Origin: Candidatus Omnitrophota bacterium
Lineage (GTDB): Bacteria; Omnitrophota; Gorgyraeia; Duberdicusellales; 4484-171
Reading direction: 5' to 3'
Assembly: GCA_021735655.1 (NCBI GenBank)
Contig: JAIPGM010000010.1
Span: 1-62,112 of the forward strand
DNA: 62,112 nucleotides
In this document: one piece after another, positions 1 to 62,111 of the stretch
Position numbering within the stretch: position 1 is the first letter of the stretch
Layout: every line of letters starts with the position of its first letter
Notes under the pieces: model-generated
What the model was told of the DNA's origin: nothing
Databases searched by the model: none
What the model saw: only the letters and a program-made list of their open reading frames with translations
Made by a program: the position numbers and the translations under genes

Positions 1-138
1 CCTTTACGGGGTCAATTAAGCCCCAGAAAAACAATACAACCTATAACCTATCTACTCTGTGACTATCTATTTATTCTACTGATAATCCAGAGTTTTCACC
101 AACTATCATTGAACAATTATCGTATCATCTCCTTTAAT
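1..138. repeat. Left copy of a perfect 138 bp terminal inverted repeat (reverse complement of 61974..62111)
   Basis: Compared directly: bases 1..138 equal the reverse complement of 61974..62111, with one extra base at 62112. The first ~20 nt can form a small hairpin (GGGGtcaattaagCCCC). Confidence 0.9.
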
Positions 139-150
139 ATTGCATAAACC

Positions 151-260
151 CTTGATAAATGTTAATTTATCAAGGGTAAATTCGACTAAATCCTTGACAT
201 TCGAAATGTCAAGTACAAGTCTCATTTACAATTGTAAAACATTATTTGACAATTGTCAAG
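151..260. promoter_or_regulatory. Cluster of four palindromic operator-like sites sharing TTGACA/TGTCAA half-sites
   Basis: CTTGATAAAT-gtta-ATTTATCAAG (151..174); TTGACAT-tcgaa-ATGTCAA (194..212); TTTACAATTGTAAA (225..238); TTGACAATTGTCAA (246..259). The last two are near-identical 14-mers with centres 21 bp apart. Confidence 0.5.
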
Positions 261-332
261 TATAAATTTTAATATTTTGTCGAAAAAAAAGGTCCAATTT
301 CATTGACAAAATGCAAATTAGCACTATTTTCC

Positions 333-361
333 TTGCCGATACTCAGTTAAACCGCTATAAT
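333..361 (+). promoter_or_regulatory. Sigma70-like promoter (TTGCCG-17 nt-TATAAT) upstream of the ORF starting at 395
   Basis: -35 TTGCCG at 333..338, 17 nt spacer, -10 TATAAT at 356..361, about 34 nt upstream of the TTG start at 395. Confidence 0.4.
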
Positions 362-394
362 AGGGCTGTTAGAAGTAGTTAAAAAGGGAAATGA

Positions 395-841
395 TTGGAG
401 AATAAGTTGAAGAAGATCGTGGTTACAGGCTGTTTATTGTCGGTTATAACCCTGCTTTTGAGTTTTAGTTTGGCAGAGGCTAAGAGCAAAGGTAAGTTTC
501 TACCTTCGAGTGAGGAGTTTTTAGGTCCCGAAGGTAAGTTTAAGGAAAGTTCTAAGGATTTAAAATTAGAAAAAAAAGAGTTTTTAGGCAGTTCAAGTGA
601 TATTGGTTTTGATTCAGTCGAAGTTAAGCCATCAACAAAGGAGTTAATGAATTATAAGTATCGGGCTGTTGTCATTGATCGAAAATATTATTTGTTTGGA
701 AAAAGACGTTCTGTATCGAGTGGAAAGTTTGCCCTTTCAGAGTCGGTAAGCTCTTCGAGTTTTAATTCTTCAAGTTATGATTTTTTACCGTCTAGTAGTG
801 AATTCAAGGTTAAAAAAAGAAAAGGTAAGGCTGGTCGTTAG
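395..841 (+). CDS. Secreted repetitive hypothetical protein (signal peptide ending LAEA; repeated K-G-K-F-L-P-S-S-E-E-F-L type motifs)
   Basis: ORF with TTG start and a hydrophobic N-terminus (LLSVITLLLSFSLAEA). Internal repeats near the N- and C-termini (KGKFLPSSEEFL / YDFLPSSSEFKVKKRKGK). No family recognised. Confidence 0.4.
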   Translation: MENKLKKIVVTGCLLSVITLLLSFSLAEAKSKGKFLPSSEEFLGPEGKFKESSKDLKLEKKEFLGSSSDIGFDSVEVKPSTKELMNYKYRAVVIDRKYYLFGKRRSVSSGKFALSESVSSSSFNSSSYDFLPSSSEFKVKKRKGKAGR

Positions 842-860
842 GTTAAGTTAGGAGGTGGGT

Positions 861-1226
861 ATGGTTGGATTGGTTAAGTTAGTTGGTATGGCTGTTTTTG
901 CTCTCGGAGTAATTTTTTTCTTAAAACCAGACCAGATAAAGAAATGGTTAAATTTTTGGATGCAGGAGAACCATCTTTACATGGGTGGGTTGTTGAGCAT
1001 TTTAGTTGGCATTGTTTTTCTGATTGCCGCTGCTAGATGTAGCATTCCTTGGATTATTGTTGTTTTCAGCATTATGAGCTTAATTAAGGGTGTGGCCTTG
1101 TTTGCCTTAGGTTCTAAAAAGGTAATTGCTTTCGCCGAAAAGTTTACTAAACGTCCGCCAAAAGCTTTGCGCCGGTTTGCGATACTATCTTTAGCTTTTG
1201 GAGTTTTGCTCATCTACGCTGCTTAG
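861..1226 (+). CDS. Small integral membrane protein, three to four predicted TM helices, function unknown
   Basis: AGGAGG SD at 850..855, 5 nt before the ATG at 861. The listed ORF starts at an in-frame GTG at 855. Hydrophobic throughout. Followed by a rho-independent terminator. Confidence 0.5.
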   Translation: MVGLVKLVGMAVFALGVIFFLKPDQIKKWLNFWMQENHLYMGGLLSILVGIVFLIAAARCSIPWIIVVFSIMSLIKGVALFALGSKKVIAFAEKFTKRPPKALRRFAILSLAFGVLLIYAA

Positions 1227-1247
1227 GAAATAAGTTGCATATGCAAA

Positions 1248-1285
1248 GGGAACGGATCTGTTGATAGACCCGTTCCCTTTTTTTA
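1248..1285 (+). terminator. Rho-independent terminator (GGGAACGG-loop-CCGTTCCC followed by T7)
   Basis: GC-rich 8 bp stem at 1248..1255 / 1269..1277, followed by TTTTTTT at 1278..1284. Confidence 0.75.
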
Positions 1286-1305
1286 TTGGAAGCGTTTACA
1301 GTCAG

Positions 1306-1371
1306 GCACCTCCTAGTTATTGATTCGTTTCATTGCTAGCGATAGAATAATAGTAGGTAGAAAGGAGGTGC
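1306..1371 (+). promoter_or_regulatory. Possible anti-Shine-Dalgarno sequestering hairpin (GCACCTCCT ... AGGAGGTGC) in front of the small ORF at 1375
   Basis: 9 bp perfect inverted repeat at 1306..1314 and 1363..1371. The downstream arm is the SD (AGGAGGTG) of the ORF at 1375. Confidence 0.35.
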
Positions 1372-1374
1372 GAA

Positions 1375-1554
1375 ATGTTAAAAAACAAAGAGGAGAGAAT
1401 AAGAATTTTTCAAGTAGTTAGCTTGGGTGAGGAGTTAGCTTGCGAAGAGATTGCAAAGATTTTAAAAAAAGATATAACTTTGAATCCCGAGAAGCCAGAT
1501 GTTTATTTTACGGTTACTGAGCATCCCGAAGAAAGCATTGTGGTTAAAGGTTAA
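1375..1554 (+). CDS. Small hypothetical protein (59 aa, MLKNKEERIRIFQVVSLGEELACEEIAKILKKDITLNPEKPDVYFTVTEHPEESIVVKG), absent from the ORF track because of its length
   Basis: Strong SD AAGGAGGTG 4 nt upstream of the ATG at 1375. Open frame to the TAA at 1552..1554. Confidence 0.4.
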   Translation: MLKNKEERIRIFQVVSLGEELACEEIAKILKKDITLNPEKPDVYFTVTEHPEESIVVKG

Positions 1555-2039
1555 CCAAGGACTGAATGAACCCAATCACCGATATGGTGAGCGAGGATAA
1601 TTACAACTAGGGCTATTAAAAGGTGTTCTGCGACAACCTTCCAGGGGCGTTTTTCTTGGCCTCGAGCAATATAAAAATTAAAGGCAACTAGAAGCAGAAT
1701 CCCCCAAAATACACTCAGGGTGATTGCGGTTTTAAGCTTTAAGAGTAATAGGGGGGCTATAAAACTGAGAGAAACAATAAATTTTGAGAGAAAGGTGTAG
1801 ATAGTTGTTTCCCATATTTCTTTGTGGCTATGTTTGTTTTCAGCCTCTTCAGAGACATGTATGCCTAAAGCATCACTGAAAGCATCAGCTATCGCAATGA
1901 TTATTATCCCGCCGATAACCGCTAATCTCGAGTTAGTTCCTGAATGTAGTCCGACCATAAGTCCGAGAGTAGTAATAATGCCGGAAGTTAGGCCAAAGCT
2001 TACTCCGGTTTTAATTTGGTGTTTCATGATATTAATCAT
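1551..2039 (-). CDS. Integral membrane protein, possibly VIT1/CCC1-like (iron/manganese transporter family)
   Basis: 162 aa and hydrophobic. Gly-rich TM motif GLTSGIITTLGLMVGL and acidic AIADAFSDALG resemble VIT-family segments. This assignment is tentative. Confidence 0.4.
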   Translation of the reverse strand: MINIMKHQIKTGVSFGLTSGIITTLGLMVGLHSGTNSRLAVIGGIIIIAIADAFSDALGIHVSEEAENKHSHKEIWETTIYTFLSKFIVSLSFIAPLLLLKLKTAITLSVFWGILLLVAFNFYIARGQEKRPWKVVAEHLLIALVVIILAHHIGDWVHSVLG

Positions 2040-2302
2040 AACAGAATTTTCTTTTTTCGTCTAGCCCGAAGTTATTTTTAAAGATAGTTTCTATTTTTCT
2101 AAAAAAATCTTGACATTTTTTATAATTTTGTTATCCTTTATTCTAAGTATTTATGGTGGAGATGACAAAGGCGTCCTTTTTACTTACAGCGAAGTGAAGG
2201 GGCGCTTTCACTATTTTTGAGGGGTTCATTTTTTTTGACTTAGAATGCACAAAAATTGGGCACTTTTTTTACAGCGTTTAATCAACTGGGAGGTAAAAGT
2301 AA

Positions 2303-5300
2303 ATGGCAAGACGCAAAGATATTAAAAAAGTTTTAATTATTGGTTCTGGTCCGATAATCATCGGCCAGGCGTGCGAATTTGACTATTCTGGCACTCAAGC
2401 TTGCAAGGCTTTAAAAGAAGAGAGCTATGAGGTAGTTTTAGTTAACTCTAATCCAGCCACGATCATGACCGATCCTGGTACAGCTGATAAAACCTATATT
2501 GAACCTCTGACTATAGAAAGTCTAGAGGAAATTATTAAAATTGAAAGGCCTGATGGTCTTTTGTCTAATTTGGGTGGTCAGACCGGGCTTAATCTTTCAT
2601 CAGGTCTTTTTAAAACCGGTATTTTAGAGAAGTACGGTGTTGAGATTATTGGGGTTAAGGCTGACGCTATTGAAAGAGGCGAAGATCGTATTGCTTTTAA
2701 AGAGACAATGAATAAGTTGGGCATAGAAATGGCTCGTTCTGCTCCTAGTCATTCAGTTGAAGAAGCTGAAAAAATAGCCTCAGAGTTGGGCTATCCGGTA
2801 GTTTTGCGTCCAGCTTACACCATGGGGGGAACCGGAGGAGGAATTGCCTACAATGTTGAAGAGTTAAGAACGATAGTGGCTAGAGGTTTGGCGGTAAGCA
2901 TAGTTAATCAGGTTTTGGTTGAAGAGTCAGTTATTGGTTGGGAAGAACTAGAGCTGGAAGTGGTCCGTGATGCTAATAATAAAAAGATCACTGTTTGCTT
3001 TATCGAAAATATTGATGCGATGGGGGTACATACTGGAGATAGTTTTTGTACTGCACCAATGTTTACGGTGCCGGAGAAGCTACAAAAGCGGATGCAAGAG
3101 CTTTCTTATAAAATTGTTGATGCGATAGAGGTTGTTGGCGGTACTAATATTCAGTTTGCTCATAATCTAGTTGATGATCGTCTGGTGGTAATTGAGATTA
3201 ACCCTCGAACCTCACGTTCCTCAGCCCTAGCTTCTAAAGCTACTGGTTTTCCGATTGCCCGGATTTCAACCAAATTAGCAGCCGGATTAACCCTGGATGA
3301 AATTCCTTATTGGAGAAAAGGGACTCTTGATAAATACGAGCCTTGGGGCGACTATGTGGTAATTAAATTTGCCCGTTGGGCTTTTGAGAAATTTCCGGCG
3401 GCAAAAGATGTTTTGGGTACACAGATGAAGGCAGTTGGAGAGGTAATGAGCATAGCCAAAACTTTTAAGGAATCGTTTCAAAAAGCGATTCGTTCTTTAG
3501 AAAGTAAAAGGTATGGTTTAGGCGGAGCAAAGAATTTTAAAGAACTTTCTTTAGACAAACTAAAAGAAAAATTAGCTCAGCCTTCCAGTGAGCGGGTGTT
3601 TATTATTTATGAGGCTTTGCGTAAAGGGATGAGCGTTGAAGAGCTTTATCAGCTAACCTTTATCGGTCGTCAGTTTCTTAAGGAGATGCAGGAGTTAGTT
3701 CAATTTGAAGAGGAATTACTTAAAAGTTCATGGAAAGACTTACCTAATGAAAAATTAGCTAAAGCTAAAGAGTGGGGTTTTTCTGACCGTTATCTAGCCG
3801 GATTGTTTAATATTAAGGAAAAAGAAGTTAGAACTAAACGTTTGGCCATTGGAAAAAAAGTTGCCTATGAGCCAGTTCCGGTCAGTGGTGTGGAAAATGC
3901 CGCTTATTACTATTCAACCTATAATGCTAAAGATAAAGTTGAAGTTTCCGATAATAAAAAAATAATGATTTTGGGTGGCGGACCTAATCGTATTGGCCAG
4001 GGTATTGAGTTCGACTATACCTGTGTGCATGCGGCTTTTACTCTTCGTGATGAAGGCTATGAATCGATAATGGTCAATTGCAATCCCGAGACAGTCTCTA
4101 CTGATTATGATACTTCTGACAAGTTATATTTTGAGCCTTTAACCATTGAAGATGTTTTAGCAATCTACGATAAAGAAAAGCCGATTGGAGCAATTGTTCA
4201 ATTTGGAGGTCAAACTCCTTTAAACTTGGCTAAAGAGTTAAAAGAAAATGGGGTAAATATTCTTGGTACAACACCGGAGAGTATAGATTTGGCCGAAGAC
4301 CGAGAGCGTTTTCGAGAAAAGATGATAAAATTGGAAATTCCTCAACCAGAAAGCGGCACAGCAAGATCACTCGAAGAAGCTTTAAAGATTGCTAGAGAAA
4401 TTGGTTTTCCGCTGATGGTTCGACCTTCCTATGTGCTTGGTGGTCGAGGTATGGAGGTTATCTATGATGAAGAAGCTTTACAAAAGTACGCCAAGGAAGC
4501 AATAAAGGTTAGCCCGGAGCATCCGATGCTTATTGATAAGTTTCTAGAGCATGCGGTTGAAGTTGAGGTTGACGCCTTGGCTGATGGTCAAGATGCTTTT
4601 GTTGCTGCGGTTATGGAGCATATTGAGCTAGCTGGAGTTCATTCCGGAGATTCGGCCTGTGCCATACCTACTAGAACTGTTACTCAGGAGCAGCTAAAGA
4701 CAATAGACGAATATACGGTTAAGATTGCCAAAGAACTTAAGGTAATTGGATTAATGAATATACAGTATGCTATTTGTGATGATAAAGTTTATATCTTAGA
4801 GGCAAATTCTAGAGCTTCACGTACAGTTCCGATTGTTTCTAAGATTACTGGAACCTCTATGGCTAGGATCGCTACTCAGCTTATGCTTGGTAAAAAGATT
4901 GCAGATTTCCCTGAACTAAAAACTCGAAAGTTACCTTATGTCGGAGTGAAGGAAGCGGTTTTTCCTTTTAATATGTTTCCTGAAGTAGATCCGTTGCTAG
5001 GTCCTGAGATGAGGGCAACTGGGGAGGTTATGGGCATTGGCGAAACTTTTGGAGCGGCTTTTTATAAGGCTCAGGCTGCAGCCGGTACTGCTTTACCTTT
5101 AGCTGGTAATGTTCTTTTGACCGTGAATGATAAGGATAAGTCGGAGCTGCTACCGATTGCTAAAAAAATTAAAAAGTTAGGGTTCAATATTTACACTACT
5201 GAGGGGACAAGTAGCTTTTTGGAAAAAGGGGGCGTAGAGAGTATTTTGATAAAAAAGTTGCATCAAGGAAGACCGAACATTGCAGATTTGATAAAAAATA

Positions 5301-5506
5301 AAGAGATTCATTTAGTTATCAATACTCCCGCTGGACGTAACAGCAAGCATGATGATAGCTATATTCGAATGCTAGCTATCCAACAGAAAATTCCTTATAT
5401 AACATCAATGGCTGCTGCTCAAGCCAGCGTTGAGGGAATAGAATCTGCTATCGGCGCGAAGTGTCCGCCAAAGTCTTTACAGGATTATTACCGGTTGCTT
5501 GTTTAA
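2303..5506 (+). CDS. carB: Carbamoyl-phosphate synthase large subunit
   Basis: 1067 aa with two ATP-grasp halves, each with a conserved glycine-rich signature ([19 protein letters not shown]; [17 protein letters not shown]), and a C-terminal MGS-like domain. No carA is adjacent. Confidence 0.95.
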
Positions 5507-5519
5507 TTTGGAGAATATA

Positions 5520-7037
5520 ATGGTAAAAAAAATCGGTTTTGATAATGAGAAGTATTTAGAAGAACAGAGCCAGGCAATTCTTGAGCGGGTGGAAAGGTTT
5601 AATAATAAGCTCTATCTAGAGTTTGGTGGAAAAATCGTTTTTGATTATCATGCTTCAAGAGTTTTACCGGGATTTGATCCTAACGTGAAGATGCGGCTTT
5701 TGCAAAAGTTGAAAGATAAGGCCGATATTATTCTTTGTATCTATGCTGGCGATATTGAAAGAAGAAAAGTGCGAGCCGATTTTGGCATTACCTATGATGT
5801 CGACGCGCTTAAGCTGATAGATGATTTAAGAGCTTGGGAGATCAATGTTGCGGCAGTAGTGATTACTCGTTTTGAAGATCAGCCTTCAGCAATAATTTTT
5901 AAAAATAAACTCGAGCGGAGAGGAGTAAAGGTTCATACTCATCGATTTACTAAGGGCTATCCTACTGATGTAGATTTGGTAGTTAGTGATAAAGGCTATG
6001 GTGCAAATGCCTATATTGAAACCGAAAAGCCGTTGGTCGTGGTCACCGGACCTGGCCCAGGGAGTGGAAAGTTAGCTACCTGCCTTTCTCAGTGTTATCA
6101 TGAGTACAAAAGAGGCGTAAAGGCTGGCTACGCTAAGTTTGAAACTTTTCCAATTTGGAACATCCCGCTTAAACATCCGGTAAATATTGCCTATGAGGCA
6201 GCTACTGCTGATTTAAGAGATTTTAACTTAGTAGATCCTTTTCATTTGGAAACTTATGCTGAGACATCAATCAATTACAATCGCGACGTAGACGCTTTTC
6301 CCTTGTTGCGGAGAATTTTAGAAAAGATAACTAAGGACGAATCGTTTTATAAATCTCCGACTGATATGGGGGTGAACCGAGCTGGATTTGGGATTGTTGA
6401 CGATGCAGTCGTTAGGGAAGCAGCCAAACAAGAGATTATTCGCAGATATTTTCGCTATCGTTGTGAATATGTAATGGGTTTTGTTGATAAGGGAACAGTT
6501 GAAAGATGCGAATTGGTAATGAAAGAGCTTAAACTTGATCCTCAAGACAGAGTAGTAGTTGCCCCGGCCCATGAATCTGCTAAGCAAGCACAGGGCAAGG
6601 GTAAAGTTAACGGAGATATCTTTTGCGGTGCAGCTATCGAGTTAAAAGACGGATCAATCGTAACCGGAAAGAACTCTTCTTTAATGAATGCTCCTTCAAG
6701 TTTAATTTTAAATGCGATAAAAGAATTGGCCGAAATTCCTGATAAGATTCATCTATTATCACCGGTAATACTTAAATCGATTGAAGATTTAAAGAAGAGT
6801 TTATCTAGTAGTGCTGATTTGAGCTTAGATTTAGAGGAGACACTTATTGCTTTAAGTATAAGCGCGACTACTAATCCAACTACCCAGTTAGCTATAGAAA
6901 AGTTAAAAGAATTAAAAGGCTGTGAAGTTCATACGACGCATATTCCGGCCCCCGGCGATGAAGCCGGTTTAAGGAGTTTAGGGGTTAATCTTACTAGTGA
7001 CCCTAATTTTTCTTCTAAGAGTCTTTTTGTTGTATAA
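5520..7037 (+). CDS. Conserved ~500 aa protein of unknown function, probably the DUF1846/UPF0371 family
   Basis: Start taken at the ATG at 5520 ([12 protein letters not shown]...), 5 nt after a GGAGA SD. The listed ORF begins at an in-frame ATG at 5499 that overlaps the carB stop. Family call is from memory of the UPF0371 N-terminus and length, not verified. Confidence 0.55.
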
Positions 7038-7080
7038 GTACAACTAAGTTCTGAAAACGATTTGATTAGGAGGTAAAGCT

Positions 7081-8529
7081 ATGAGTGGAATTTTTGGAGC
7101 AGTTTCTAAAAATAATTGTGCAGAGATTATACTTTATGGTACAGATTATCATTCGCATTTAGGAACTGAATACGGTGGCATGGCAGTGTTAGGTGAGACC
7201 TTCCAGCGGCAAATACACAATATTGCCCAAACTCAATTTAAATCTAAATTTTATGATGAATATAAGCAGATGAAGGGCAATAAGGGCATTGGTGTTATAA
7301 GTGCTCTAGAAGAGCAGCCGATGTATTTAAATTCTAAATTTGGCCCTTTTTGTATTGTTACTAATGGATTAATTGAGAATATTTCTGAATTAGCAAAAGA
7401 TCTTCTTAGGGGGGGGGTTTCTTTTACCGAGATAAGCAAATATGAAGTTAACGAGACTGAACTAGTAGCAAAGTTAATTAATCAAGGTAAAGATTTAATT
7501 GATGGTATCGAGCAAGCGTTTGCTAAAATTCAAGGATCTTGTTCTCTTTTATTGCTTAATAAGGATGGTGTATATGCTGCTAGAGACAAGTTCGGCTACA
7601 CTCCGCTTGTAGTCGGCCAGCGTGCTGATGCTATGGCAATTACATCAGAAAGTTGTAGTTTTGTGAATAATGATTTTAAAATAGTTAAATATTTAGAACC
7701 GGGCGAGATAGTTTTAGTTACCGAAAAGGGAATGGAGCAGAAGAAACCCGGTGGCAGCACTAATCAAATTTGTGCTTTTTTCTGGATTTACACTGGATTT
7801 CCGGCTTCAAGTTACGAAGGTATCAATACCGAAATCGTAAGGGAGCGTTGTGGTCGTCAGCTTGCCCGTGGCGATAAAGATATAGAGGTAGATGTTGTTT
7901 CAGGAGTTCCTGATTCTGGGGCAGCTCATGCTATTGGTTATGCTATCGAGAGTGGTAAACCTTACCGCAGACCTTTAGTTAAATATACTCCCGGATATGG
8001 CCGTAGTTATATTCCACCTTCTCAAGTTACCCGCGATTTAATAGCGAAGATGAAACTAATTTCGATTAAGGAAATTATTGATGGCAACCGAATCGTTGTT
8101 TGTGAAGATTCAATTGTTCGGGGAACTCAATTGAAGAATTTTACCGTAAAAAAACTTTGGGATTCAGGAGCTAAGGAAATTCATGTTCGGCCGGCTTGTC
8201 CGCCGCTTATGTTTCATTGTCGATTTAACCTTTCAACTCGCAGCAGTGACGAGCTTGTAGCTCGTCGGGCAATCCGAAGCTTGGAGGGTCGCGATATAAA
8301 AGACTTATCCGAGTACCTTGATCCGAATTCTCAAAAATATAAGGAAATGTTGGATTGGATTGCCAAGGATTTACAAGTTACCACTCTTAGGTATCAAACC
8401 GTAGACGATATGGTTGAGGCAATCGGCTTACCTAAGGAGAAACTTTGTCTTTACTGCTGGACCGGTGAATGTCCAGGATCAAAGAGCTGCGACCAAAATA
8501 GTTGTTCAACAGGTTGCCAAACAAAGTAA
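7081..8529 (+). CDS. Amidophosphoribosyltransferase (PurF)-family protein with Ser replacing the N-terminal nucleophile Cys (MSGIFG) and a C-terminal Cys-rich tail
   Basis: Strong SD (TAGGAGGTAAAGCTATG). Class II GATase fold motifs (KGIGVISAL, FCIVTNGLIENISEL), a PRTase motif (VVCEDSIVRGTQL) and a PP-loop region (DVVSGVPDSGAAHAIGYAIESGKPYRRP) align with E. coli and B. subtilis PurF. The C-terminus is CLYCWTGECPGSKSCDQNSCSTGCQTK. Confidence 0.75.
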   Translation: MSGIFGAVSKNNCAEIILYGTDYHSHLGTEYGGMAVLGETFQRQIHNIAQTQFKSKFYDEYKQMKGNKGIGVISALEEQPMYLNSKFGPFCIVTNGLIENISELAKDLLRGGVSFTEISKYEVNETELVAKLINQGKDLIDGIEQAFAKIQGSCSLLLLNKDGVYAARDKFGYTPLVVGQRADAMAITSESCSFVNNDFKIVKYLEPGEIVLVTEKGMEQKKPGGSTNQICAFFWIYTGFPASSYEGINTEIVRERCGRQLARGDKDIEVDVVSGVPDSGAAHAIGYAIESGKPYRRPLVKYTPGYGRSYIPPSQVTRDLIAKMKLISIKEIIDGNRIVVCEDSIVRGTQLKNFTVKKLWDSGAKEIHVRPACPPLMFHCRFNLSTRSSDELVARRAIRSLEGRDIKDLSEYLDPNSQKYKEMLDWIAKDLQVTTLRYQTVDDMVEAIGLPKEKLCLYCWTGECPGSKSCDQNSCSTGCQTK

Positions 8530-8552
8530 ACTAGGTTAAAAAATCGATTATA

Positions 8553-8597
8553 AATGAATAAGGCGTTTCTCCTAATACGAGAAACGCCTTATTCATT
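8553..8597 (+). terminator. 19 bp perfect hairpin (AATGAATAAGGCGTTTCTC-ctaatac-GAGAAACGCCTTATTCATT) downstream of the purF-like gene; no canonical U-tract
   Basis: Perfect inverted repeat at 8553..8571 / 8579..8597. A second, weaker hairpin followed by a T-run lies at 8620..8643 (ACGGA-gagaggg-TCCGT then ggcTTTT). Confidence 0.45.
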
Positions 8598-8827
8598 AAG
8601 AAGACCCCCCTCCCCGAAAACGGAGAGAGGGTCCGTGGCTTTTGACTCTCTAGGACAGAGAGCCTTCACTAAAGGATAACATCTTTTTCCCTTGTGTTTC
8701 AAGAGGTTATGAAAGTATTCGTGAAAACGCTTACAAGGGTTAAATTTGAATATAGTTGCTGTTTTTTATAAAATAACTCAATAAAACCGGGTATCTCTAT
8801 TTCTATCTTATTCAGCTAACATTTTTC

Positions 8828-8856
8828 TTTACAATTTAATTAGTGCAGTGTATAAT
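8828..8856 (+). promoter_or_regulatory. Near-consensus sigma70 promoter (TTTACA-17 nt-TATAAT) for hisG
   Basis: -35 at 8828..8833, exactly 17 nt spacer, -10 TATAAT at 8851..8856. hisG ATG is at 8898. Confidence 0.5.
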
Positions 8857-8897
8857 CTAACCTCGTTGAGACATAAACTATTAAATAGTATAAGATT

Positions 8898-9773
8898 ATG
8901 GATGTATTAAAGTTAGGCATACCTAAGGGAAGTTTACAGGAAAAAACCGTCGAGCTTTTTCGGATGGCCGGTTTTAATATCTATACTAGCAGTCGGTCGT
9001 ATTTTCCGACTATCGACGATTCTCAGGTAAAGGTGGTTATGGTTAGGGCTCAGGAGATGTCTCGCTATGTTGAAGAAGGAGTACTTGACTGCGGGATCAC
9101 CGGAGAAGATTGGGTTTTAGAGAATTCATCGGACGTTTTACGTTTGGCTGAACTGCGTTATGCAAAACGCACGCTTAATAAGGTACGTTGGGTAGTTGCA
9201 GTAAAGGATGATTCTAAAATAAAGAAGCTAGCCGATTTGAAGGGCAAGCGCATCGCCACCGAACTTTTAGGTTATACTAAAAAGTTTTTTAAAGCTAAAA
9301 AAATACCGGTTGATGTTGAGTTTAGTTGGGGGGCAACTGAAGTTAAGGTAAAAAGCGGTCTAGTTGATGCGATTGTTGAGCTTACTGAGACCGGTGAATC
9401 GCTTAGAGCCAATGGTTTAAAGGAAATCGCTACTATTTGTTTGTCGAGTACTCAATTTATCGCTAATAAATTAGCAGTAAAGAATAGCTGGAAGAAAAAG
9501 AAAATTGACTATATACTTTTACTTTTGAAAGGAGCCTTAGAGGCTCGTGATAAAGTGGGTTTGAAACTTAATATTAGGAAAGAAAATTTGGAAGAAATAT
9601 TAGCGCTTTTGCCAGCCTTAAAGAAGCCAACTATTTCTTCTTTAACTTTAAAAGATTGGGTTGCTTGTGAAGTAATTATTGAAGAAAGCCGGGTGCGCGA
9701 AATTCTGCCGCTTCTTAAAGAAAAAGGAGCCCAAGGAATTATCGAATACCCCTTAAATAAAGTTATTTATTAA
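8898..9773 (+). CDS. hisG: ATP phosphoribosyltransferase, long form with C-terminal regulatory domain
   Basis: 291 aa. N-terminal LKLGIPKGSLQEKTVELFRMAGF and DCGITGEDWVLE motifs are typical of HisG. Its length matches the long (HisG-L) form. No other his genes are nearby. Confidence 0.85.
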   Translation: MDVLKLGIPKGSLQEKTVELFRMAGFNIYTSSRSYFPTIDDSQVKVVMVRAQEMSRYVEEGVLDCGITGEDWVLENSSDVLRLAELRYAKRTLNKVRWVVAVKDDSKIKKLADLKGKRIATELLGYTKKFFKAKKIPVDVEFSWGATEVKVKSGLVDAIVELTETGESLRANGLKEIATICLSSTQFIANKLAVKNSWKKKKIDYILLLLKGALEARDKVGLKLNIRKENLEEILALLPALKKPTISSLTLKDWVACEVIIEESRVREILPLLKEKGAQGIIEYPLNKVIY

Positions 9774-9782
9774 GAGGATAGT

Positions 9783-9872
9783 ATGCCTTGCGGAAAAAAA
9801 AGAAAGCTAAAGAAAGTTAAAAGACATTGGTTTAAAAAAAGAAGAAAACAGCAAAGACACAAGTCTAAATAA
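9783..9872 (+). CDS. Tiny, extremely basic ORF (29 aa: MPCGKKRKLKKVKRHWFKKRRKQQRHKSK), not in the ORF track
   Basis: AAGAGGA SD 6 nt upstream of the ATG at 9783. 19 of 29 residues are K/R/H. TAA at 9870..9872. Confidence 0.3.
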   Translation: MPCGKKRKLKKVKRHWFKKRRKQQRHKSK

Positions 9873-9961
9873 TAGCTTATTTTTATCTTGGGTTCCATGC
9901 TCTTTTTCTATTTTATATTTAAAAAACGCCACCTTACTTGGAGTTAAAGCAAGGAATAAAA

Positions 9962-11783: not shown

Positions 11784-11784
11784 T

Positions 11785-13552: not shown

Positions 13553-13623
13553 ATAGATGTTTTTGATCTTTAGAATATTTGTGCCAAACAGCTATGAGTA
13601 TCGTGAAAAGGAGGTAGCAAGAG

Positions 13624-14040
13624 ATGGAGATCACAGAAGTTAGAGTTTCTCTTCGAGAAAGCGAGGGAAAGCGGCTCAAGGCTTACGCAACAATTACTTT
13701 TGATAATTCTTTTGTCGTGAGGAACATCAAAGTGATTGAAGGAAACAGCGGCTTATTTGTTGCTATGCCAGCAAGAAAACTTAAGCAGTTCTGTCCTCGT
13801 TGTGGAAAAAAAGTTGACGTAGGGAGTCAGCATTGTAGCCATTGTGGGGTACAGCTGCCGCCTGCTCCTAGGGGCATGGAAGAAAATCGACAAGCGACTC
13901 ATCAGGACTTAGCCCACCCAATTAATCAAGAGTTTCGCGATTATCTTCAGGCCAAGGTTTTAGATGCCTATCAGCAGGAAAAGAAATCACCGACTAAGAG
14001 GGAATATAAAGAAGAACCAAAGGCGGAAGAGACAGCTTAA
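13624..14040 (+). CDS. spoVG: SpoVG-family protein with a C-terminal zinc-ribbon extension (CPRCG...CSHCG)
   Basis: SD AAAGGAGGT. N-terminus MEITEVRVSLRESEGKRLKAYATITFDNSFVVRNIKVIEG matches SpoVG. About 45 extra C-terminal residues contain CxxC-x11-CxxC. Confidence 0.8.
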   Translation: MEITEVRVSLRESEGKRLKAYATITFDNSFVVRNIKVIEGNSGLFVAMPARKLKQFCPRCGKKVDVGSQHCSHCGVQLPPAPRGMEENRQATHQDLAHPINQEFRDYLQAKVLDAYQQEKKSPTKREYKEEPKAEETA

Positions 14041-14099
14041 ATCGCAGATTTTTTAAATAGCTTTTAAACATATCTTTATTTATTTAATAGATTAATTTT

Positions 14100-14171: not shown

Positions 14172-14195
14172 ATATTATTAAGGAAATTTAAAAAC

Positions 14196-54557: not shown

Positions 54558-54558
54558 A

Positions 54559-56636: not shown

Positions 56637-56687
56637 AAAATAATAAGATTCACTAGTAGTGATCTAAATTAAGGTCAGGTAGATATT

Positions 56688-59483: not shown

Positions 59484-59512
59484 ATAGTCTGATCGATTCG
59501 ATTAAGAGTCAA

Positions 59513-61978
59513 ATGCTAAACAGTGTTTACAAATTAAAACGTTTTTTATTGGGGATTTTTATTATCGGTCTAACTTTGTCTTCATTATTGATGGAGGTGA
59601 GTTTAGCCAAAGAGATTGAGGGTGAGCAATTTCGTACGGCGGCTAAGGCTTTTTCTGATCAATTCTACGATGCTTCACTTTCTTTATTTGAGAGATTCAT
59701 TGGAGACTTTCCTGAAAGCCCCCTAACTATTAAAGCAAAACTATATCTAGCTAAGTGTCACTATTATAAGCAAGATTATCGAAAAGCTCTGAAGATTCTT
59801 TCTGATATCGAAACTGAGGTGAAGTCTGATGGTATTTCTGACGAGTTATTTTATTGGCTGGGTGTTATTAACTTCAAGGGAAGGGACTTTGATAAGGCGG
59901 TTAACTACACCAAAAGAGTTGTTGATAACTATCCGGACTCAGAGTTTAGGTGGCCGAGTTATTATTTATTAGGTCAGAGTTTTCAAGAAGGCGAAAACCC
60001 TAAGGCTGCAAAAAAGGTTTTTTCGGATATTGTTGAAAAGGCTACAGATAGCGAAATTGTTCAGGATGCTTACTTGCAGCTGTTTCCGATTTATCTAAAA
60101 GAGAAAAATCACTCTCAACTTATAGCCTTAGGAAGAGAATATTTTGAGAAATTTAGCCGGAGCCAAGAAATTGCAAAGGTTTATTTTTATCTTGCAGAAA
60201 ACTACTATACTCAAGCTGAGTGGGATAAAGCTGAGGACTACTATCAGAGAGGATTGCGTGGTCATCCCGACCCAGAGCTTTTAGATTTAATTTATCAACG
60301 ACTAGGGTTTACTTATATCGAGAAGGATAATAGTTTTGAAGCTAAGATTTCTATTGATCGAATAAAAGATAAAGAGTTGCGACTTTTTTCTCAAGGGGCT
60401 TATTACTTTAGGTCAAAAGATTTCATCCAAGCCTTAGAAACTTTTAACATGTTTATTCGTGACTATCCCCAGGGCGCACATATCCAAGAAGTTTATCTAA
60501 ATAAGGCAGATGTTCTCTATGAGCTGGGAAGGTTAAATGATGCAGTCTATACATACAGATATATTTTGAATAATTCATCGAGATCAGATAACCTTGAGGT
60601 TATTAACAAGGCTCATTATGGTTTGGCTTGGAGCTATCTAAAGAGTGGTAAATTTAAAAAAGCAATTGAGGAGTTTAAGGATACTTTAGAATATGCTTCT
60701 AATCCAGTAGTTAAGGCAAGTTCACAAATTCATATTGCTGATGCTTACCAAGAAATGGGTAAATATGTAGAAGCTTTAAACATTTATAATGATATTTTAA
60801 CAAATTACCCGAATACAATATACGCTGATTACATACAGTTCCAAATCGGCCTCACTTTTTTAAAAAAGAAAGACTTAGAAAAGGCCTTCATGGCTTTGAA
60901 TAATCTTAAAAATAATTTTTCTTCGTCAAAACTTGTTCCGCAAGCCCAATACTATTTAGCTGTAGGATATTTTTCTCAAGAAGATTATTTTGAAGCTAAA
61001 AGTCTCCTCGAAGACTTTATTGACAAGTTTCCCAATGACGATCTTATCGCCAAGGCGTACTATCTTCAGGGTAAATGCTTTTTTAATGAAAAGGATTATC
61101 AAAGGGCTTTAAGGATATTTAAAGAAGTAGTAGCTAAATTCCACGATCGTGACATAGAGGAACTTAGCTATGTTGACTTGGGTATAACCTATTTACATCT
61201 ATCTTTGAATGAAGCGGCCAAGAAAACATGGGTTCAGTTTTTAAAAAAATACCCCCAGTCAGAGCATCGAGCTTCAGTAATTCTATATTTAGGGGGTCTT
61301 TATGAAAAAGAAAGTAATTTTATTGAGGCCGAAAAGAAATATCGTCAGGTGTTGCGTGATTATCAGGACTCTTCTTGGGGGCAGGAAGCCAGGCTTGCCC
61401 TAGGCCATCTTTATTGGAACCGAGACGATTTGGAAACGGCTGAGGAGCATTTCAAAGCTTTAGCTAAGGAAAATGTTCCAGCAGCTTTAAAATCTAAGTT
61501 GTACCTAGCTAAAGTTTATAGCCAAGGCCAAAAGCATGAGGAGGCTTTAGCTATCTACGAGGAGCTGATTGATTCTAAGTCTCCGATAACAAAAATTGCT
61601 TTCTTTGAGAAAGCTTTTCTTCTTAAGGAGATGAAGCTTTACTCTGAGGCAATAGTGATGTTTAACCAAGCAATTGTTTTGGATGTTGACAGCCCAGAGC
61701 TGCGTTTTTCTTTAGGAATTTGTTTAGAGAAGACCGGAAAATTAAAAGATGCAGTTGAACAATATCTCAAGGTAATTTATAATTTTCCTGAAGATAATGA
61801 TGCGGCTGCTGACCCACAGGATAAAGGCTATAGGGTTAAATCGTTTTTTAGGGTTGCCAGAATTTACGAAAGAGATAACAATCTTGAAGAGGCTAAGAAG
61901 GTTTACCAAAAAATAATTGACCTAGGCATTGAAGAGTCAAAAATTGCTCAGGTCCGGTTAGAAGCACTAAAAAATTAA
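59513..61978 (+). CDS. Large secreted TPR-repeat protein
   Basis: Signal peptide, then about 20 TPR-like repeats across 821 aa. Its stop codon lies inside the right terminal inverted repeat. Confidence 0.7.
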   Translation: MLNSVYKLKRFLLGIFIIGLTLSSLLMEVSLAKEIEGEQFRTAAKAFSDQFYDASLSLFERFIGDFPESPLTIKAKLYLAKCHYYKQDYRKALKILSDIETEVKSDGISDELFYWLGVINFKGRDFDKAVNYTKRVVDNYPDSEFRWPSYYLLGQSFQEGENPKAAKKVFSDIVEKATDSEIVQDAYLQLFPIYLKEKNHSQLIALGREYFEKFSRSQEIAKVYFYLAENYYTQAEWDKAEDYYQRGLRGHPDPELLDLIYQRLGFTYIEKDNSFEAKISIDRIKDKELRLFSQGAYYFRSKDFIQALETFNMFIRDYPQGAHIQEVYLNKADVLYELGRLNDAVYTYRYILNNSSRSDNLEVINKAHYGLAWSYLKSGKFKKAIEEFKDTLEYASNPVVKASSQIHIADAYQEMGKYVEALNIYNDILTNYPNTIYADYIQFQIGLTFLKKKDLEKAFMALNNLKNNFSSSKLVPQAQYYLAVGYFSQEDYFEAKSLLEDFIDKFPNDDLIAKAYYLQGKCFFNEKDYQRALRIFKEVVAKFHDRDIEELSYVDLGITYLHLSLNEAAKKTWVQFLKKYPQSEHRASVILYLGGLYEKESNFIEAEKKYRQVLRDYQDSSWGQEARLALGHLYWNRDDLETAEEHFKALAKENVPAALKSKLYLAKVYSQGQKHEEALAIYEELIDSKSPITKIAFFEKAFLLKEMKLYSEAIVMFNQAIVLDVDSPELRFSLGICLEKTGKLKDAVEQYLKVIYNFPEDNDAAADPQDKGYRVKSFFRVARIYERDNNLEEAKKVYQKIIDLGIEESKIAQVRLEALKN

Positions 61979-62111
61979 AGGAGATGATACGATAATTGTT
62001 CAATGATAGTTGGTGAAAACTCTGGATTATCAGTAGAATAAATAGATAGTCACAGAGTAGATAGGTTATAGGTTGTATTGTTTTTCTGGGGCTTAATTGA
62101 CCCCGTAAAGG
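61974..62111. repeat. Right copy of the 138 bp terminal inverted repeat (reverse complement of 1..138)
   Basis: Direct comparison shows a perfect match over 138 bp. The inner end overlaps the last 5 nt of the TPR gene. Confidence 0.9.

What the first reader, a model, noticed from the sequence alone, without database searches (positions are those of the whole stretch)
1..62111. Perfect 138 bp inverted repeats at both termini of the window
Bases 1..138 are exactly the reverse complement of 61974..62111. The enclosed 62 kb is core chromosome (ribosomal proteins, dnaB, bamA, lpx/kds), not a plasmid or phage. A linear replicon with terminal inverted repeats therefore seems unlikely. More plausible readings are a multicopy repeat (MITE or IS end) at which an assembler broke the contig on both sides, a large invertible segment bounded by inverted repeats, or a fold-back assembly artefact. 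The outermost ~20 nt form a hairpin (GGGGtcaattaagCCCC). The inner boundary of the right copy overlaps the stop codon of the last gene. The left copy is followed immediately by a dense operator-like palindrome cluster.
Basis: seen in the sequence. Interest (0 to 1): 0.6.

Follow-up and report, generated by a model that had tools for sequence, protein, structure and literature searches.

The report
Contig broken in two IS110 copies
The identical inverted 138 bases at both ends of this 62 kb piece of an Omnitrophota chromosome are the first part of two oppositely oriented copies of a multicopy IS110-family insertion sequence (the kind guided by a "bridge RNA"), at which the assembler stopped; this is an ordinary assembly effect.

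Summary
Bases 1-138 are the exact reverse complement of 61974-62111, and there are no other copies in the window.

It is not a replicon terminus, CRISPR leader, MITE or fold-back artefact. The outer 133/134 nt of each end are the start of the non-coding left end (LE) of an IS110-family insertion sequence. The inner 5 nt (ATTAA) are host target DNA that happens to match at both sites.

In 23 metagenome contigs and other assemblies the same sequence (72-97% identical) continues as follows:
- about 250 nt of structured non-coding LE;
- a 341-348 aa DEDD/Ser recombinase (PF01548+PF02371; NF033542 "IS110 family RNA-guided transposase");
- a right end ...TTAACATAGGAG.

Elements are about 1.32-1.37 kb. 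They have no terminal inverted repeats and carry AGGAG at both ends. They sit between a Shine-Dalgarno AGGAG and the ATG of a co-oriented host gene.

A loop segment of the LE RNA (NN-AGGAG) matches the two target bases before AGGAG in 29 independent insertion sites (p<5e-5). It predicts both window sites (AA|AGGAG).

Both copies point outward and are cut by the contig ends. A k=31 assembly of SRR12088349 breaks at the same two junctions.

This is a new member of a known kind, of low interest as a finding. Whether the 62 kb segment inverts could not be tested.

The parts
1..133 (-). Copy A: first 133 nt of the left (5' non-coding, bridge-RNA-coding) end of an IS110-family insertion sequence. 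It points leftward out of the window, and the rest of the element is cut off by the window end.
   Evidence: 94% identical to positions 1-131 of the complete 1366-bp element in L042. 92-97% identical to the LE of L002, L009, L019, L020 and L028, and 72-85% to 18 further loci. In those loci it is followed by an IS110 recombinase gene.
61979..62112 (+). Copy B: first 134 nt of the same left end. It points rightward out of the window and is cut off by the window end.
   Evidence: Exact reverse complement of copy A. blastn to the L042 element positions 1-132 gives 94%.
134..138 (-). Host target DNA next to copy A (reads ATTAA on the - strand, immediately 5' of AGGAG). It is identical by target preference (AA) plus chance (ATT) to the flank of copy B.
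   Evidence: In relatives sharing the same element, the bases before AGGAG differ between insertion sites. Guide positions -1 and -2 (AA) match the element's RNA, while -3 and -4 behave as chance.
61974..61978 (+). Host target DNA next to copy B (ATTAA). It contains the TAA stop codon (61976-61978) of the 821-aa TPR gene.
   Evidence: The Logan contig L052 has AATAA here, a variant at 61975.
129..133 (-). AGGAG at the element/target junction of copy A. This is a Shine-Dalgarno-like pentamer present at both ends of every full-length relative, and the recombination core lies somewhere in it.
61979..61983 (+). AGGAG at the element/target junction of copy B.
119..124 (-). TACGAT, a -10-like hexamer of the inferred junction promoter. 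The -35 (TTGACT/TTGACA/TGGACA) sits in the right end, 17 nt away once the element is circular. The equivalent in copy B is 61988-61993.
   Evidence: The hexamer is invariant or nearly so in the alignments. Spacing was counted from the sequences. The principle is described for IS621 in PMC11208160. Function is inferred, not shown.
8..24 (-). The equivalent in copy B is 62088-62104.
   Evidence: It pairs in 19/19 sequences, with one compensatory change GGGA/TCCC in L008 (helix 5).
1..5 (-). Start of the putative left-target guide of the bridge RNA (reads AA|AGG..., cut by the window end). The equivalent in copy B is 62107-62112 (AA|AGGA).
   Evidence: Covariation of the two bases before AGGAG with the target flank in 29 insertion sites. 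Both window flanks read AA|AGGAG, as this guide predicts.
38..103 (-). 5' strands of conserved RNA helices: the H0 strand GTTGGTGAA at 95-103, closing-stem strands at 61-66 and 51-58, and the module-1 stem strand GGTTATAGGTT at 38-48. Their 3' partners lie beyond the window end.
   Evidence: Structure count on 19 sequences: 98.1% of cells paired and 7 pairs with compensatory changes, against about 40% paired in slid controls. Coordinates checked.
231..259 (-). Context, not part of the element. Promoter-like site TTGACA-17-TACAAT (11/12) pointing left. It would transcribe the off-window gene whose Shine-Dalgarno sequence copy A has hit.
   Evidence: Consensus match only.
59513..61978 (+). Context. 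TPR-repeat gene whose stop codon abuts the Shine-Dalgarno sequence hit by copy B. In a related Omnitrophota contig the ortholog (67% identity) is followed by exbB/exbD with no IS.

Best explanation
Each end of the window runs into a copy of the same IS110-family insertion sequence, about 1.35 kb in full-length relatives. The two copies are in opposite orientation and both point outward. Only the first 133/134 nt of each left end are present. The assembler could not pass a sequence that occurs at least twice with different flanks, so the contig stops inside it on both sides. That produces a 'terminal inverted repeat'.

How the element works (shown for IS621 in the literature, inferred here):
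1. The element excises as a circle.
2. Joining the right end to the left end creates a sigma-70-type promoter. Here that is TTGACT/TGGACA in the right end, 17 nt, then TACGAT in the left end.
3. This promoter transcribes a structured non-coding 'bridge RNA' from the left end.
4. One loop of the RNA pairs with the target DNA and a second loop pairs with the element's own junction.
5. The DEDD/Ser recombinase exchanges strands at a short core.

In this clade both RNA modules carry a hairpin with loop CTTAATTGA followed by G-NNN-AGGAG. Module 1 (xAA|AGGAG in the window's element) specifies the target, and module 2 (GAT|AGGAG) matches the right end (..CAT|AGGAG). The programmed target is therefore NN-AGGAG, a Shine-Dalgarno sequence. 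The element lands between the Shine-Dalgarno sequence and the start codon of a gene, in the gene's orientation, and leaves an AGGAG in front of the ATG.

In the window:
- Copy B sits directly after the TAA of the TPR gene, on the Shine-Dalgarno sequence of the next gene. By synteny that gene is probably exbB.
- Copy A sits on the Shine-Dalgarno sequence of an off-window gene that is transcribed leftward from the divergent promoter region at 139-394.
For: 1. Exact 138-nt inverted identity, with no other copy in the window.

2. A 22-mer from the repeat finds 23 metagenome contigs. In all of them the conserved sequence ends sharply at ...ATCATCTCCT(T)|variable flank. On the other side it continues into about 250 nt of conserved non-coding DNA and an ORF starting MKRWIGVDLHK.

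3. The ORF hits PF01548 (1e-16), PF02371 (8e-19) and NCBIfam NF033542 'IS110 family RNA-guided transposase' (234 bits, cutoff 140). It also hits IS621 transposase 8wt6 at E=2e-11. D8/E53/D91/D94 and the Ser of PRVxVSNET align to IS621 D11/E60/D102/D105/S241.

4. The right end ...TTAACATAGGAG| was defined in 15+ loci, with element lengths of 1319-1374 bp. Stand-alone Logan contigs of 1370-1379 nt start at (AA)AGGAGATGATACG and end at ...ATAGGA(G), which is the collapsed repeat unit.

5. The window ends are 94% identical to element positions 1-132 of L042 and 97% identical to L002, from an Omnitrophota MAG.

6. The LE RNA structure has 49 pairs, 98.1% of cells paired and 7 pairs with compensatory changes. 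None of 500 shuffles reached these values, and slid controls gave about 40% paired.

7. Guide test on 29 distinct insertion sites. RNA and target match at -1 in 27/29 (p=0.002) and at -2 in 20/29 (shuffle mean 8.2, p<5e-5). At -3 and -4 the match is at chance level. Both window sites fit.

8. An ATG starts 5-9 nt after the right-end AGGAG in 14/15 scripted flanks, or 21/22 when the flanks listed are included. Called host genes start 48-74 nt after the transposase stop on the same strand.

9. Logan k=31 contigs from SRR12088349 are 100% and 99.96% identical to the window. They start 29 nt and end 28 nt inside the repeat.

10. A related genome has the TPR gene followed by exbB/exbD with no IS.
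Against: - No recombinase gene, right end or 3' half of the RNA is in the window. That the two copies are full length is therefore inferred from relatives and from the contig ending there.
- The full element from this genome or sample was not recovered.
- Copy number in this genome is unknown. Two copies suffice to break a de Bruijn graph.
- The retained length (138/139 nt) is near but not equal to k-1 for MEGAHIT's k=141, and the assembler used is unknown.
- The right-side guides (RTG/RDG) and the exact core were not identified.
- The left guides lie 3' of the hairpin in my fold, whereas in IS621 they lie 5' of it. Either the fold or the guide assignment could be partly wrong.
- The Logan assembly probably uses the same reads, so it is independent only with respect to the assembler.
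Confidence: 0.9

Rival explanations
1. The two ends are not full insertion sequences. They are short non-autonomous remnants, either solo left ends or a MITE-like derivative carrying only the RNA-coding part, that happen to lie in inverted orientation.
For: Only 133/134 nt of the element are visible and no recombinase fragment is in the window. Degenerate relatives exist: an internally deleted L003, frameshifted L019/L020, and the rearranged L016 and L018.
Against: Every relative that extends past this point continues into the rest of the LE and a recombinase gene or its remnant. A remnant shorter than the assembler's k would have been read through, yet both contig ends stop at the same depth (138/139 nt). 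Both copies are 100% identical, which suggests recent insertions of an active element.
Confidence: 0.06
2. The 62 kb segment is an invertible segment. Recombination between the two inverted IS copies (RecA-dependent or recombinase-mediated) flips it, both orientations coexist in the population, and this is what stopped the assembler.
For: Two identical inverted repeats of more than 1 kb are a classical substrate for inversion. Bridge recombinases can catalyse inversion (abstract of PMC11208160). L005 and L025 share a left flank but have different right flanks, which shows rearrangement or chimeric joining across copies of a related element.
Against: There is no direct evidence. Two identical repeats longer than k break a de Bruijn assembly whether or not inversion occurs. 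GC skew and gene orientation are uniform within the segment, but they would flip together and so say nothing. This reading is compatible with the main explanation rather than an alternative to the identity of the repeat.
Confidence: 0.12
3. It is an assembly artefact (fold-back or chimeric join) or the terminal inverted repeat of a linear replicon.
For: An exact inverted identity placed exactly at both contig ends looks like either.
Against: The repeat is a homolog of the internal left end of a widespread mobile element, not a terminus. The two junctions have different unique flanks that both obey the element's target rule AA|AGGAG. A second assembler reproduces both junctions. The content is core chromosome of an Omnitrophota bacterium: carB, hisG, transketolase, uvrA and others.
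Confidence: 0.01
4. The outer 32 nt are a CRISPR repeat and 33-138 a conserved CRISPR leader, so that two outward-facing arrays flank the segment. This was my own first hypothesis.
For: The reverse complement reads GTTTTTCTGGGGCTTAATTGACCCCGTAAAGGA, which resembles a CRISPR repeat. L002 starts with CATTGAAAC.
Against: The candidate repeat has no match in the metagenome collection. In 23 loci the sequence is single-copy per contig, with no arrays, and continues into an IS110 recombinase gene.
Confidence: 0.01

Closest known systems
IS621 (E. coli) and the IS110 group of the IS110 family: bridge-RNA-guided DEDD/Ser recombinases (Durrant et al. 2024, PMC11208160; Hiraizumi et al. 2024, PMC11208158)
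   Same: - Same two Pfam domains and the same NCBIfam equivalog model, with the catalytic D-E-D-D and Ser aligned.
- A long non-coding left end upstream of the recombinase encodes a structured RNA with two pseudo-symmetric modules.
- One module matches the target and the other matches the element's own end.
- No terminal inverted repeats, and a short identical motif at both ends.
- A -35 in the right end and a -10 in the left end that would form a promoter in the circle.
   Different: - Only about 20-25% protein identity to IS621 over the Tnp domain, and E=2e-11 overall.
- The target is NN-AGGAG (Shine-Dalgarno) rather than a REP sequence with a CT core.
- In the predicted fold the segments matching the left target and left donor lie 3' of each module's hairpin, whereas IS621's LTG/LDG lie 5' of the stem-loop.
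- A long closing stem and a crossing helix (H0) are predicted.
- Right-side guides were not identified.
- No Rfam family matches the RNA.
IS900 / IS901 / IS902 / IS116 / IS1110 subgroup of IS110 (actinobacterial)
   Same: These elements are reported to insert into translation initiation signals, between the ribosome-binding site and the start codon. See Doran et al. [quoted passage not shown] The consensus AAGGNG-N-ATG and the orientation specificity are from my own knowledge of the older literature. They belong to the IS110 group with the RNA in the left end (supplement of PMC11208160).
   Different: - Different phylum and very different sequences. Relatedness within the family was not tested here.
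- For IS900 the ORF on the strand opposite to the transposase (hed) is proposed to exploit the host signals.
- Here the recombinase gene is co-oriented with the target gene, and the right end restores AGGAG in front of the host ATG.
IS1111 group of the IS110 family
   Same: Same recombinase family and the same RNA-guided principle.
   Different: IS1111 elements carry the bridge RNA in a long right end and have 7-17 bp subterminal inverted repeats. Here the long non-coding end is the left one (about 250 nt against 35-75 nt), and no such repeats were seen.
Generic repeat-induced contig breaks in short-read de Bruijn assemblies
   Same: A contig ends a near-k-sized distance inside a repeat that has at least 2 contexts. 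The Logan k=31 contigs stop 28-29 nt inside the repeat, and collapsed IS-length contigs occur in other samples.
   Different: Nothing differs in kind. The only particular feature is that the two flanking copies are inverted, which gives the contig the look of terminal inverted repeats.

Membership tests
IS110 family insertion sequence (IS110 group) | [quoted passage not shown] | tested here: met
   Met in the full-length relatives whose left end is 72-94% identical to the window ends: PF01548 at 1e-16, PF02371 at 8e-19, and NF033542 at 234 bits against a cutoff of 140. The gene itself lies outside the window, and there is no tblastn hit inside it.
IS110 family insertion sequence (IS110 group) | The two copies in THIS genome carry that recombinase gene. 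| not testable with these tools
   Both copies are cut after 133/134 nt by the window ends. The element from sample SRR12088349 could not be retrieved.
IS110 family insertion sequence (IS110 group) | Catalytic D-E-D-D in the RuvC domain and the conserved Ser in the Tnp domain. | tested here: met
   The HMMER alignment to IS621 (8wt6) puts D8, E53, D91, D94 and the Ser of VSNET opposite IS621 D11, E60, D102, D105 and S241 (residue roles from PMC11208158). I counted the residues from the printed alignment.
IS110 family insertion sequence (IS110 group) | The long non-coding left end upstream of the recombinase encodes a structured RNA. | tested here: met
   The LE measures 263-280 nt from AGGAG to the GVDLHK codons in most of the 16 full loci; L016 has 332. 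The structure has 49 pairs, 98.1% of cells paired and 7 pairs with compensatory changes, and 0 of 500 shuffles reach these values. Slid controls give 36-45% paired. Caveat: the structure was derived from these same 19 related sequences.
IS110 family insertion sequence (IS110 group) | An RNA loop covaries with and base-pairs to the target DNA. | tested here: met
   Over 29 distinct insertion sites, the two bases before AGGAG in the module-1 loop match the target at -1 in 27/29 (p=0.002) and at -2 in 20/29 against 8.2 expected (p<5e-5). This was shown only for the left side of the target. The right-side guide was not found.
IS110 family insertion sequence (IS110 group) | A second RNA loop base-pairs to the donor, that is the element's own RE-LE junction. 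| tested here: inconclusive
   Module 2 carries AT|AGGAG, identical to the last 7 nt of the right end (..CAT|AGGAG), in every sequence that holds module 2. Both are invariant, so there is no covariation to test. A 7-mer match in about 250 nt has roughly 1.5% chance probability (my estimate).
IS110 family insertion sequence (IS110 group) | No terminal inverted repeats, sequence-specific insertion, and a short core repeated at both junctions. | tested here: met
   The LE starts AGGAGATGATACG and the RE ends TTAACATAGGAG, which are not inverted repeats. AGGAG is present at both junctions in all loci. The target is always xxAGGAG followed 5-9 nt later by ATG.
IS110 family insertion sequence (IS110 group) | The circular intermediate reconstitutes a promoter across the RE-LE junction. 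| tested here: inconclusive
   At sequence level, a -35-like hexamer (TTGACT, TTGACA or TGGACA) ends 13 nt before the RE end, and TACGAT starts 4 nt after AGGAG in the LE. This gives a 17-nt spacer in the circle. Circles and transcripts cannot be tested here.
CRISPR array with conserved leader | Direct repeats of 25-40 nt alternating with spacers next to the leader. | tested here: not met
   The candidate repeat is absent from the metagenome collection. There is one copy per contig in 23 loci, and the sequence continues into an IS110 gene.
MITE / TIR-bounded DDE transposon end | Terminal inverted repeats at the two ends of one element, flanked by a target-site duplication. | tested here: not met
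   The left and right ends of the complete element are unrelated in inverted orientation. The inverted identity in the window is between two separate copies of the same (left) end.
Linear replicon with terminal inverted repeats | The repeat is the physical end of the molecule, with replicon-type content. | tested here: not met
   In relatives the homologous sequence is internal to contigs and continues for more than 1.2 kb. The content is core chromosome of Omnitrophota.
IS900-like subgroup (translation-signal-targeting IS110 elements) | Insertion between the ribosome-binding site and the start codon in one orientation. | tested here: met
   The behaviour is the same: 21/22 right flanks have an ATG 5-9 nt after AGGAG, always co-oriented. 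Phylogenetic membership in that actinobacterial subgroup was not tested, and the orientation relative to the recombinase gene appears to differ (plus my own knowledge).

The most novel reading that the evidence does not exclude
The element belongs to a large IS110 clade of uncultivated bacteria that appears to be undescribed. More than 3,300 recombinases score E<=1e-60, many of them from Omnitrophota.

Its bridge RNA would have a different layout from IS621:
- Both 'left' guides sit 3' of a conserved CTTAATTGA-loop hairpin.
- The two modules are enclosed by a long closing stem with a crossing helix.
- Only 2 variable + 5 fixed nucleotides (NN-AGGAG) are read.

The RNA is thus hard-wired to Shine-Dalgarno sequences. 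The element would home between the Shine-Dalgarno sequence and the start codon, co-directionally, and rebuild the Shine-Dalgarno sequence for the host gene. That would be a low-cost 'translation-signal homing' strategy and a natural example of a very short programmable guide.
Probability: 0.3. Interest if true: 0.45.

Novelty: new member of a known kind. Interest (0 to 1): 0.22.

Why it matters
For the scan, it explains away a striking feature. Contigs of uncultivated bacteria that end in perfect inverted repeats can simply be bounded by two inverted copies of a multicopy insertion sequence, and they should not be read as linear replicons, giant transposons or invertons without read-level evidence.

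For biology, the side result is modest but usable. It gives a defined set of about 1.35 kb IS110 elements from Omnitrophota and other uncultivated bacteria, with exact ends and a supported RNA fold. It also gives a statistically supported two-base programmable guide next to a fixed AGGAG. This adds a natural Shine-Dalgarno-targeting example to the bridge-recombinase family, which is of current interest for genome engineering. It also suggests how such elements can spread at low cost to the host.

Tried and rejected
1. CRISPR leader plus first repeat. This was my first idea after seeing L002 begin with CATTGAAAC. I rejected it because the repeat pattern has no metagenome hit and the 23 leader-pattern loci show a single copy that continues into an IS110 gene.

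2. Rfam. No family covers the repeat or the full left end. The only hits were tRNAs and sub-threshold noise.

3. A 17-mer of the hairpin in viral contigs gave two unrelated chance hits, L026 and L027.

4. I tried to recover the complete element from the window's own sample (SRR12088349) through the protein index. Five recombinase clusters were looked up and ten were screened for accessions. None came from that sample.

5. The exact-protein look-up of the last gene failed. The Logan version differs by one residue, caused by the T/A variant at 61975.

6. I searched for right-side guides (RTG/RDG) by eye and in tabulated right flanks. I found no convincing complementarity. Right flanks are only loosely conserved: (A/G)(T/A), then AT-rich sequence up to the ATG.

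7. Literature search for RBS-targeting IS110 elements. Two searches found nothing useful. A third gave the Doran 1997 reference through PMC8141618.

8. Relating 138/139 nt to an assembler k. The value is close to k-1=140 for MEGAHIT k141, the assembler named in the title of the related MAG contig L002. It is not equal, and the window's assembler is unknown, so I draw no conclusion.

Full report
OBSERVATION. Window 1..138 is the exact reverse complement of 61974..62111, and the right end has one more base, 62112. A 41-nt piece occurs only at these two places, against 0 expected by chance. blastn with a full-length relative finds nothing else in the window. The outer edge of the repeat coincides with the ends of the window, so only the inner edge is a real boundary.

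The window has about 38% G+C and a uniformly positive GC skew of +0.12 to +0.28. Nearly all long ORFs are on the + strand, and there is one tRNA-Gln. Homologs of its proteins are named as Candidatus Omnitrophota/Omnitrophica.

FIRST LEADS. An exact-protein look-up of carB returned a Logan (k=31) contig from SRR12088349. It is 100% identical to window 110-15077, so it starts 29 nt inside the repeat. A second Logan contig from the same run ends at window 62001, 28 nt inside the right copy. It has one mismatch, A for T at 61975. A second assembler therefore breaks at the same two junctions. The reads are probably the same, so this is independent only with respect to the assembly method.

A 28-mer from the repeat found one contig among the GTDB species representatives. 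This is L002 from an Omnitrophota MAG. It starts 9 nt outside a 107-nt stretch that is 97% identical to the window repeat and then has a completely different flank. Because L002 begins with CATTGAAAC, I first suspected a CRISPR leader. That idea failed. The putative repeat has no match in the metagenome collection.

WHAT THE REPEAT IS. A 22-mer shared by the window and L002 hit 23 metagenome contigs, once per contig. Oriented like the left end of the window, all of them share a sharp boundary...TATCGTATCATCTCCT(T)|variable flank. On the other side they continue for about 250 nt of conserved non-coding sequence. An ORF follows on the opposite strand, starting MKRWIGVDLHK....

The ORF (341-348 aa) matches the following:
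- PF01548 DEDD_Tnp_IS110 and PF02371 Transposase_20.
- NCBIfam NF033542 'IS110 family RNA-guided transposase', at 234 bits against a cutoff of 140.
- The solved IS621 transposase, at E=2e-11. In that alignment D8, E53, D91, D94 and the serine of PRVxVSNET stand opposite the IS621 catalytic residues D11, E60, D102, D105 and S241.

Downstream of the ORF, conservation ends at ...GTCTTYAGAGTAGA-N-TTGACTnTTAACATAGGAG|flank. From AGGAG to AGGAG the elements measure 1319-1374 bp. Logan assemblies of other samples contain stand-alone contigs of 1370-1379 nt that begin (AA)AGGAGATGATACG and end ...ATAGGA(G). This is the collapsed repeat unit with exactly these ends.

The family is large. 3,306 proteins score E<=1e-60, mostly on contigs of 1.1-1.5 kb. 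That size distribution is typical of multicopy insertion sequences that fragment assemblies.

The window ends are 94% identical to positions 1-132 of the complete element in L042. They are 92-97% identical to L002, L009, L019, L020 and L028. The window therefore contains element positions 1-133 (left copy, - strand) and 1-134 (right copy, + strand). The recombinase gene and the right end lie outside.

WHERE THE ELEMENT ENDS IN THE WINDOW. Copies of one and the same element at different sites differ in the base just before AGGAG. The element therefore begins at, or within, AGGAG. In the window that is 129-133 on the - strand and 61979-61983 on the + strand. The remaining 5 identical bases, ATTAA, are host DNA. 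The Logan variant at 61975 lies in these 5 bases, which confirms that they are flank and not element.

TARGET. The right flank of the element carries an ATG 5-9 nt after the right-end AGGAG in 14 of 15 flanks extracted by script. The count is 21 of 22 when the flanks listed are added. Gene calls place a co-oriented host gene 48-74 nt after the recombinase stop codon. The element therefore inserts between a Shine-Dalgarno AGGAG and the start codon, in the orientation of the gene, and AGGAG is present at both junctions.

In the window, copy B follows the TAA of the 821-aa TPR gene directly (TAA-AGGAG). In a related Omnitrophota contig the ortholog (67% identity) is followed by exbB/exbD without an IS. 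The gene hit by copy B is therefore probably exbB.

Copy A points left. Between it and ORF 395 lies a divergent promoter region with a strong leftward promoter-like site, TTGACA-17-TACAAT at 259->231. This fits an off-window gene on the - strand whose Shine-Dalgarno sequence was hit.

HOW IT WORKS. For IS621 it has been shown that the circular form rebuilds a promoter across the RE-LE junction. It has also been shown that an RNA of about 177 nt from the left end binds the recombinase. Two internal loops of that RNA base-pair with the target and with the donor junction (PMC11208160; PMC11208158). I tested three corresponding features here.

(a) Promoter. A -35-like hexamer (TTGACT, TTGACA or TGGACA) ends 13 nt before the right end, and the nearly invariant TACGAT starts 4 nt after AGGAG in the left end. 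In the circle this gives a 17-nt spacer. This is a sequence-level inference only.

(b) RNA structure. I aligned 18 distinct left ends plus the window fragment. The proposed structure has a closing stem, two modules each with a hairpin, and a crossing helix. It is paired in 98.1% of cells and has 7 pairs with compensatory changes. None of 500 shuffles reached these values, and sliding the partners gave 36-45% pairing. It pairs in 19/19 sequences and has one compensatory change.

(c) Guides. Both modules have the form hairpin(loop CTTAATTGA)-G-NNN-AGGAG.
- In module 2 the segment is GAT|AGGAG or AAT|AGGAG. Its last seven bases equal the right end..CAT|AGGAG.
- In module 1 the three bases vary between subfamilies. 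Over 29 distinct insertion sites the RNA base equals the target base at -1 in 27 cases (p=0.002). At -2 it matches in 20 cases, against 8.2 expected (p<5e-5). At -3 and -4 the match is at chance level.
- Several of the mismatches are RNA G opposite a target A, which would still allow a G-T wobble with the bottom strand. This is my reading of the table.
- The window's RNA reads GTAA|AGG(A), cut by the contig end, and both window targets read AA|AGGAG.

The programmed target is therefore NN-AGGAG. This explains two of the five extra identical bases at the inner edge. The other three, ATT, are chance or an unrecognised preference.

I could not locate the right-side guides or the exact core. In my fold the left guides lie 3' of the hairpins, whereas IS621's LTG/LDG lie 5' of the stem-loop. 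Either this clade has a different layout, or my fold or guide assignment is incomplete.

WHY THE CONTIG ENDS THERE. Two or more identical copies with different flanks create a branch in a de Bruijn graph. The unique contig keeps roughly k-1 bases of the repeat. The Logan k=31 contigs keep 28-29 nt and the window keeps 138/139 nt. The related MAG contig L002 is a MEGAHIT k141 contig, for which k-1=140. That is close but not equal, and the assembler of the window is unknown. I therefore use this only as a plausibility argument. Because both visible ends are left ends, they must belong to two different copies in opposite orientation. A single copy on a circular molecule would give a left end at one side and a right end at the other.

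RIVALS.
- A solo or non-autonomous remnant cannot be excluded from the window alone. It is unlikely, because all relatives continue into the full element and both contig ends stop at the same depth.
- An inversion polymorphism between the two copies is possible but untested.
- The fold-back artefact, the linear-replicon terminus and the CRISPR leader are contradicted (see the rival and membership sections).

COMPARISON AND NOVELTY. The element meets the testable defining features of the IS110 group of the IS110 family. These features are the recombinase domains and catalytic residues, the long RNA-coding left end, the absence of terminal inverted repeats, site-specific insertion with a short motif at both junctions, and RNA-target covariation. 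These were tested in full-length relatives, because the window holds only the first 133 nt.

Targeting of translation initiation signals has a precedent in the family. The reference is IS900: Doran et al. 1997, cited in PMC8141618. Details of the consensus are from my own knowledge.

The finding is thus a new member of a known kind. The terminal inverted repeat itself is an ordinary consequence of assembling across a multicopy insertion sequence. The Shine-Dalgarno-directed guide and the apparent difference in RNA layout are the only points that might interest a specialist.

Noticed in passing
window 139-394: A divergent promoter/operator region between the left IS copy and ORF 395. It holds perfect or near-perfect palindromes at 148-177 (ACCCTTGATAAAT/ATTTATCAAGGGT), 193-213 (CTTGACATT/AATGTCAAG), 243-262 (TATTTGACAA/TTGTCAAGTA), 225-259 and 274-312. 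All are built on the half-site TTGAYA / TRTCAA. There are 7 promoter-like sites against 2.1 expected, including TTGACA-17-TACAAT on the - strand (259->231). The palindromes may be back-to-back -35 boxes, operators of one regulator, or both. This is host DNA, not part of the IS.
   Followed up: partly
window 61975: The window has T and the Logan contig L052 from SRR12088349 has A. It is the only difference in 2,666 nt. The variant changes the last codon of the TPR gene (AAT Asn -> AAA Lys) and lies in the 5-nt host flank next to the IS. It would shorten the perfect inverted identity from 138 to 136 nt. It could be a population variant or a consensus effect of the assembler at the repeat edge.
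   Followed up: partly
window 1-62112: Very strong and uniform GC skew (G 14,008 against C 9,516; +0.12 to +0.28 in every 2-kb window), together with about 55 of 62 long ORFs on the + strand. The whole segment appears to lie on one replichore, with genes co-oriented with replication. No skew switch is visible.
   Followed up: no
L005 / L025 (and L042-L051): Contigs that share the same left flank of the IS have different right flanks. Examples are L005 against L025, and L045/L046/L047 with one left flank and three right flanks. Either assemblers joined flanks of different copies through the repeat, or recombination between copies has rearranged the genomes.
   Followed up: no
L003, L016, L018, L019, L020: Degenerate relatives. 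L003 has an internal deletion (257-aa ORF, 1077-bp element). In L019 and L020 the recombinase frame is broken, and L019 also has ATGGGAG instead of ATAGGAG at the right end. In L016 the right flank is a fragment of another recombinase gene (nested or rearranged copies). L018 has no intact recombinase ORF after the left end.
   Followed up: no
Right ends of L003-L059 (about 20-35 nt before the end) and left ends at element positions about 68-83 (window 51-66 on the - strand): The motif GTCT-N2-3-(A/G)GAGTAGA occurs in direct orientation near both ends of the element. In the left end it forms the 5' strand of the closing stem of the RNA, with compensatory changes. Its copy in the right end, just upstream of the -35-like hexamer, has no explanation. 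It could be a protein-binding site or part of a transcript from the right end.
   Followed up: no
A2 columns 31-40 with 223-231, against 77-92 with 239-256: Two well-supported helices of the left-end RNA cross each other, so they form either a pseudoknot or alternative conformations. A third pairing (CTCTGG with CTGGAG, chosen by RNAalifold) competes for the same GGAG and also shows compensatory changes, for example CTTCAG/CTGAAG in L032. This hints at a structural switch.
   Followed up: partly
L053 6464-6604: In the related Omnitrophota contig, the 141-nt spacer between the TPR gene and exbB contains a long palindrome (ATATCCGCC...GGCGGATAT enclosing CTGTAAATTT...AAATTTACAG). In the window's genome the spacer is absent and the TAA is directly followed by AGGAG.
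   Followed up: no
L026 4867-4883 and L027 8457-8473 (IMG/VR contigs): Exact matches to the 17-mer GGGGTCAATTAAGCCCC in two large viral contigs. They are unrelated to the IS: one is a terminator-like hairpin and the other lies in a C-rich repeat region. These are chance hits.
   Followed up: yes
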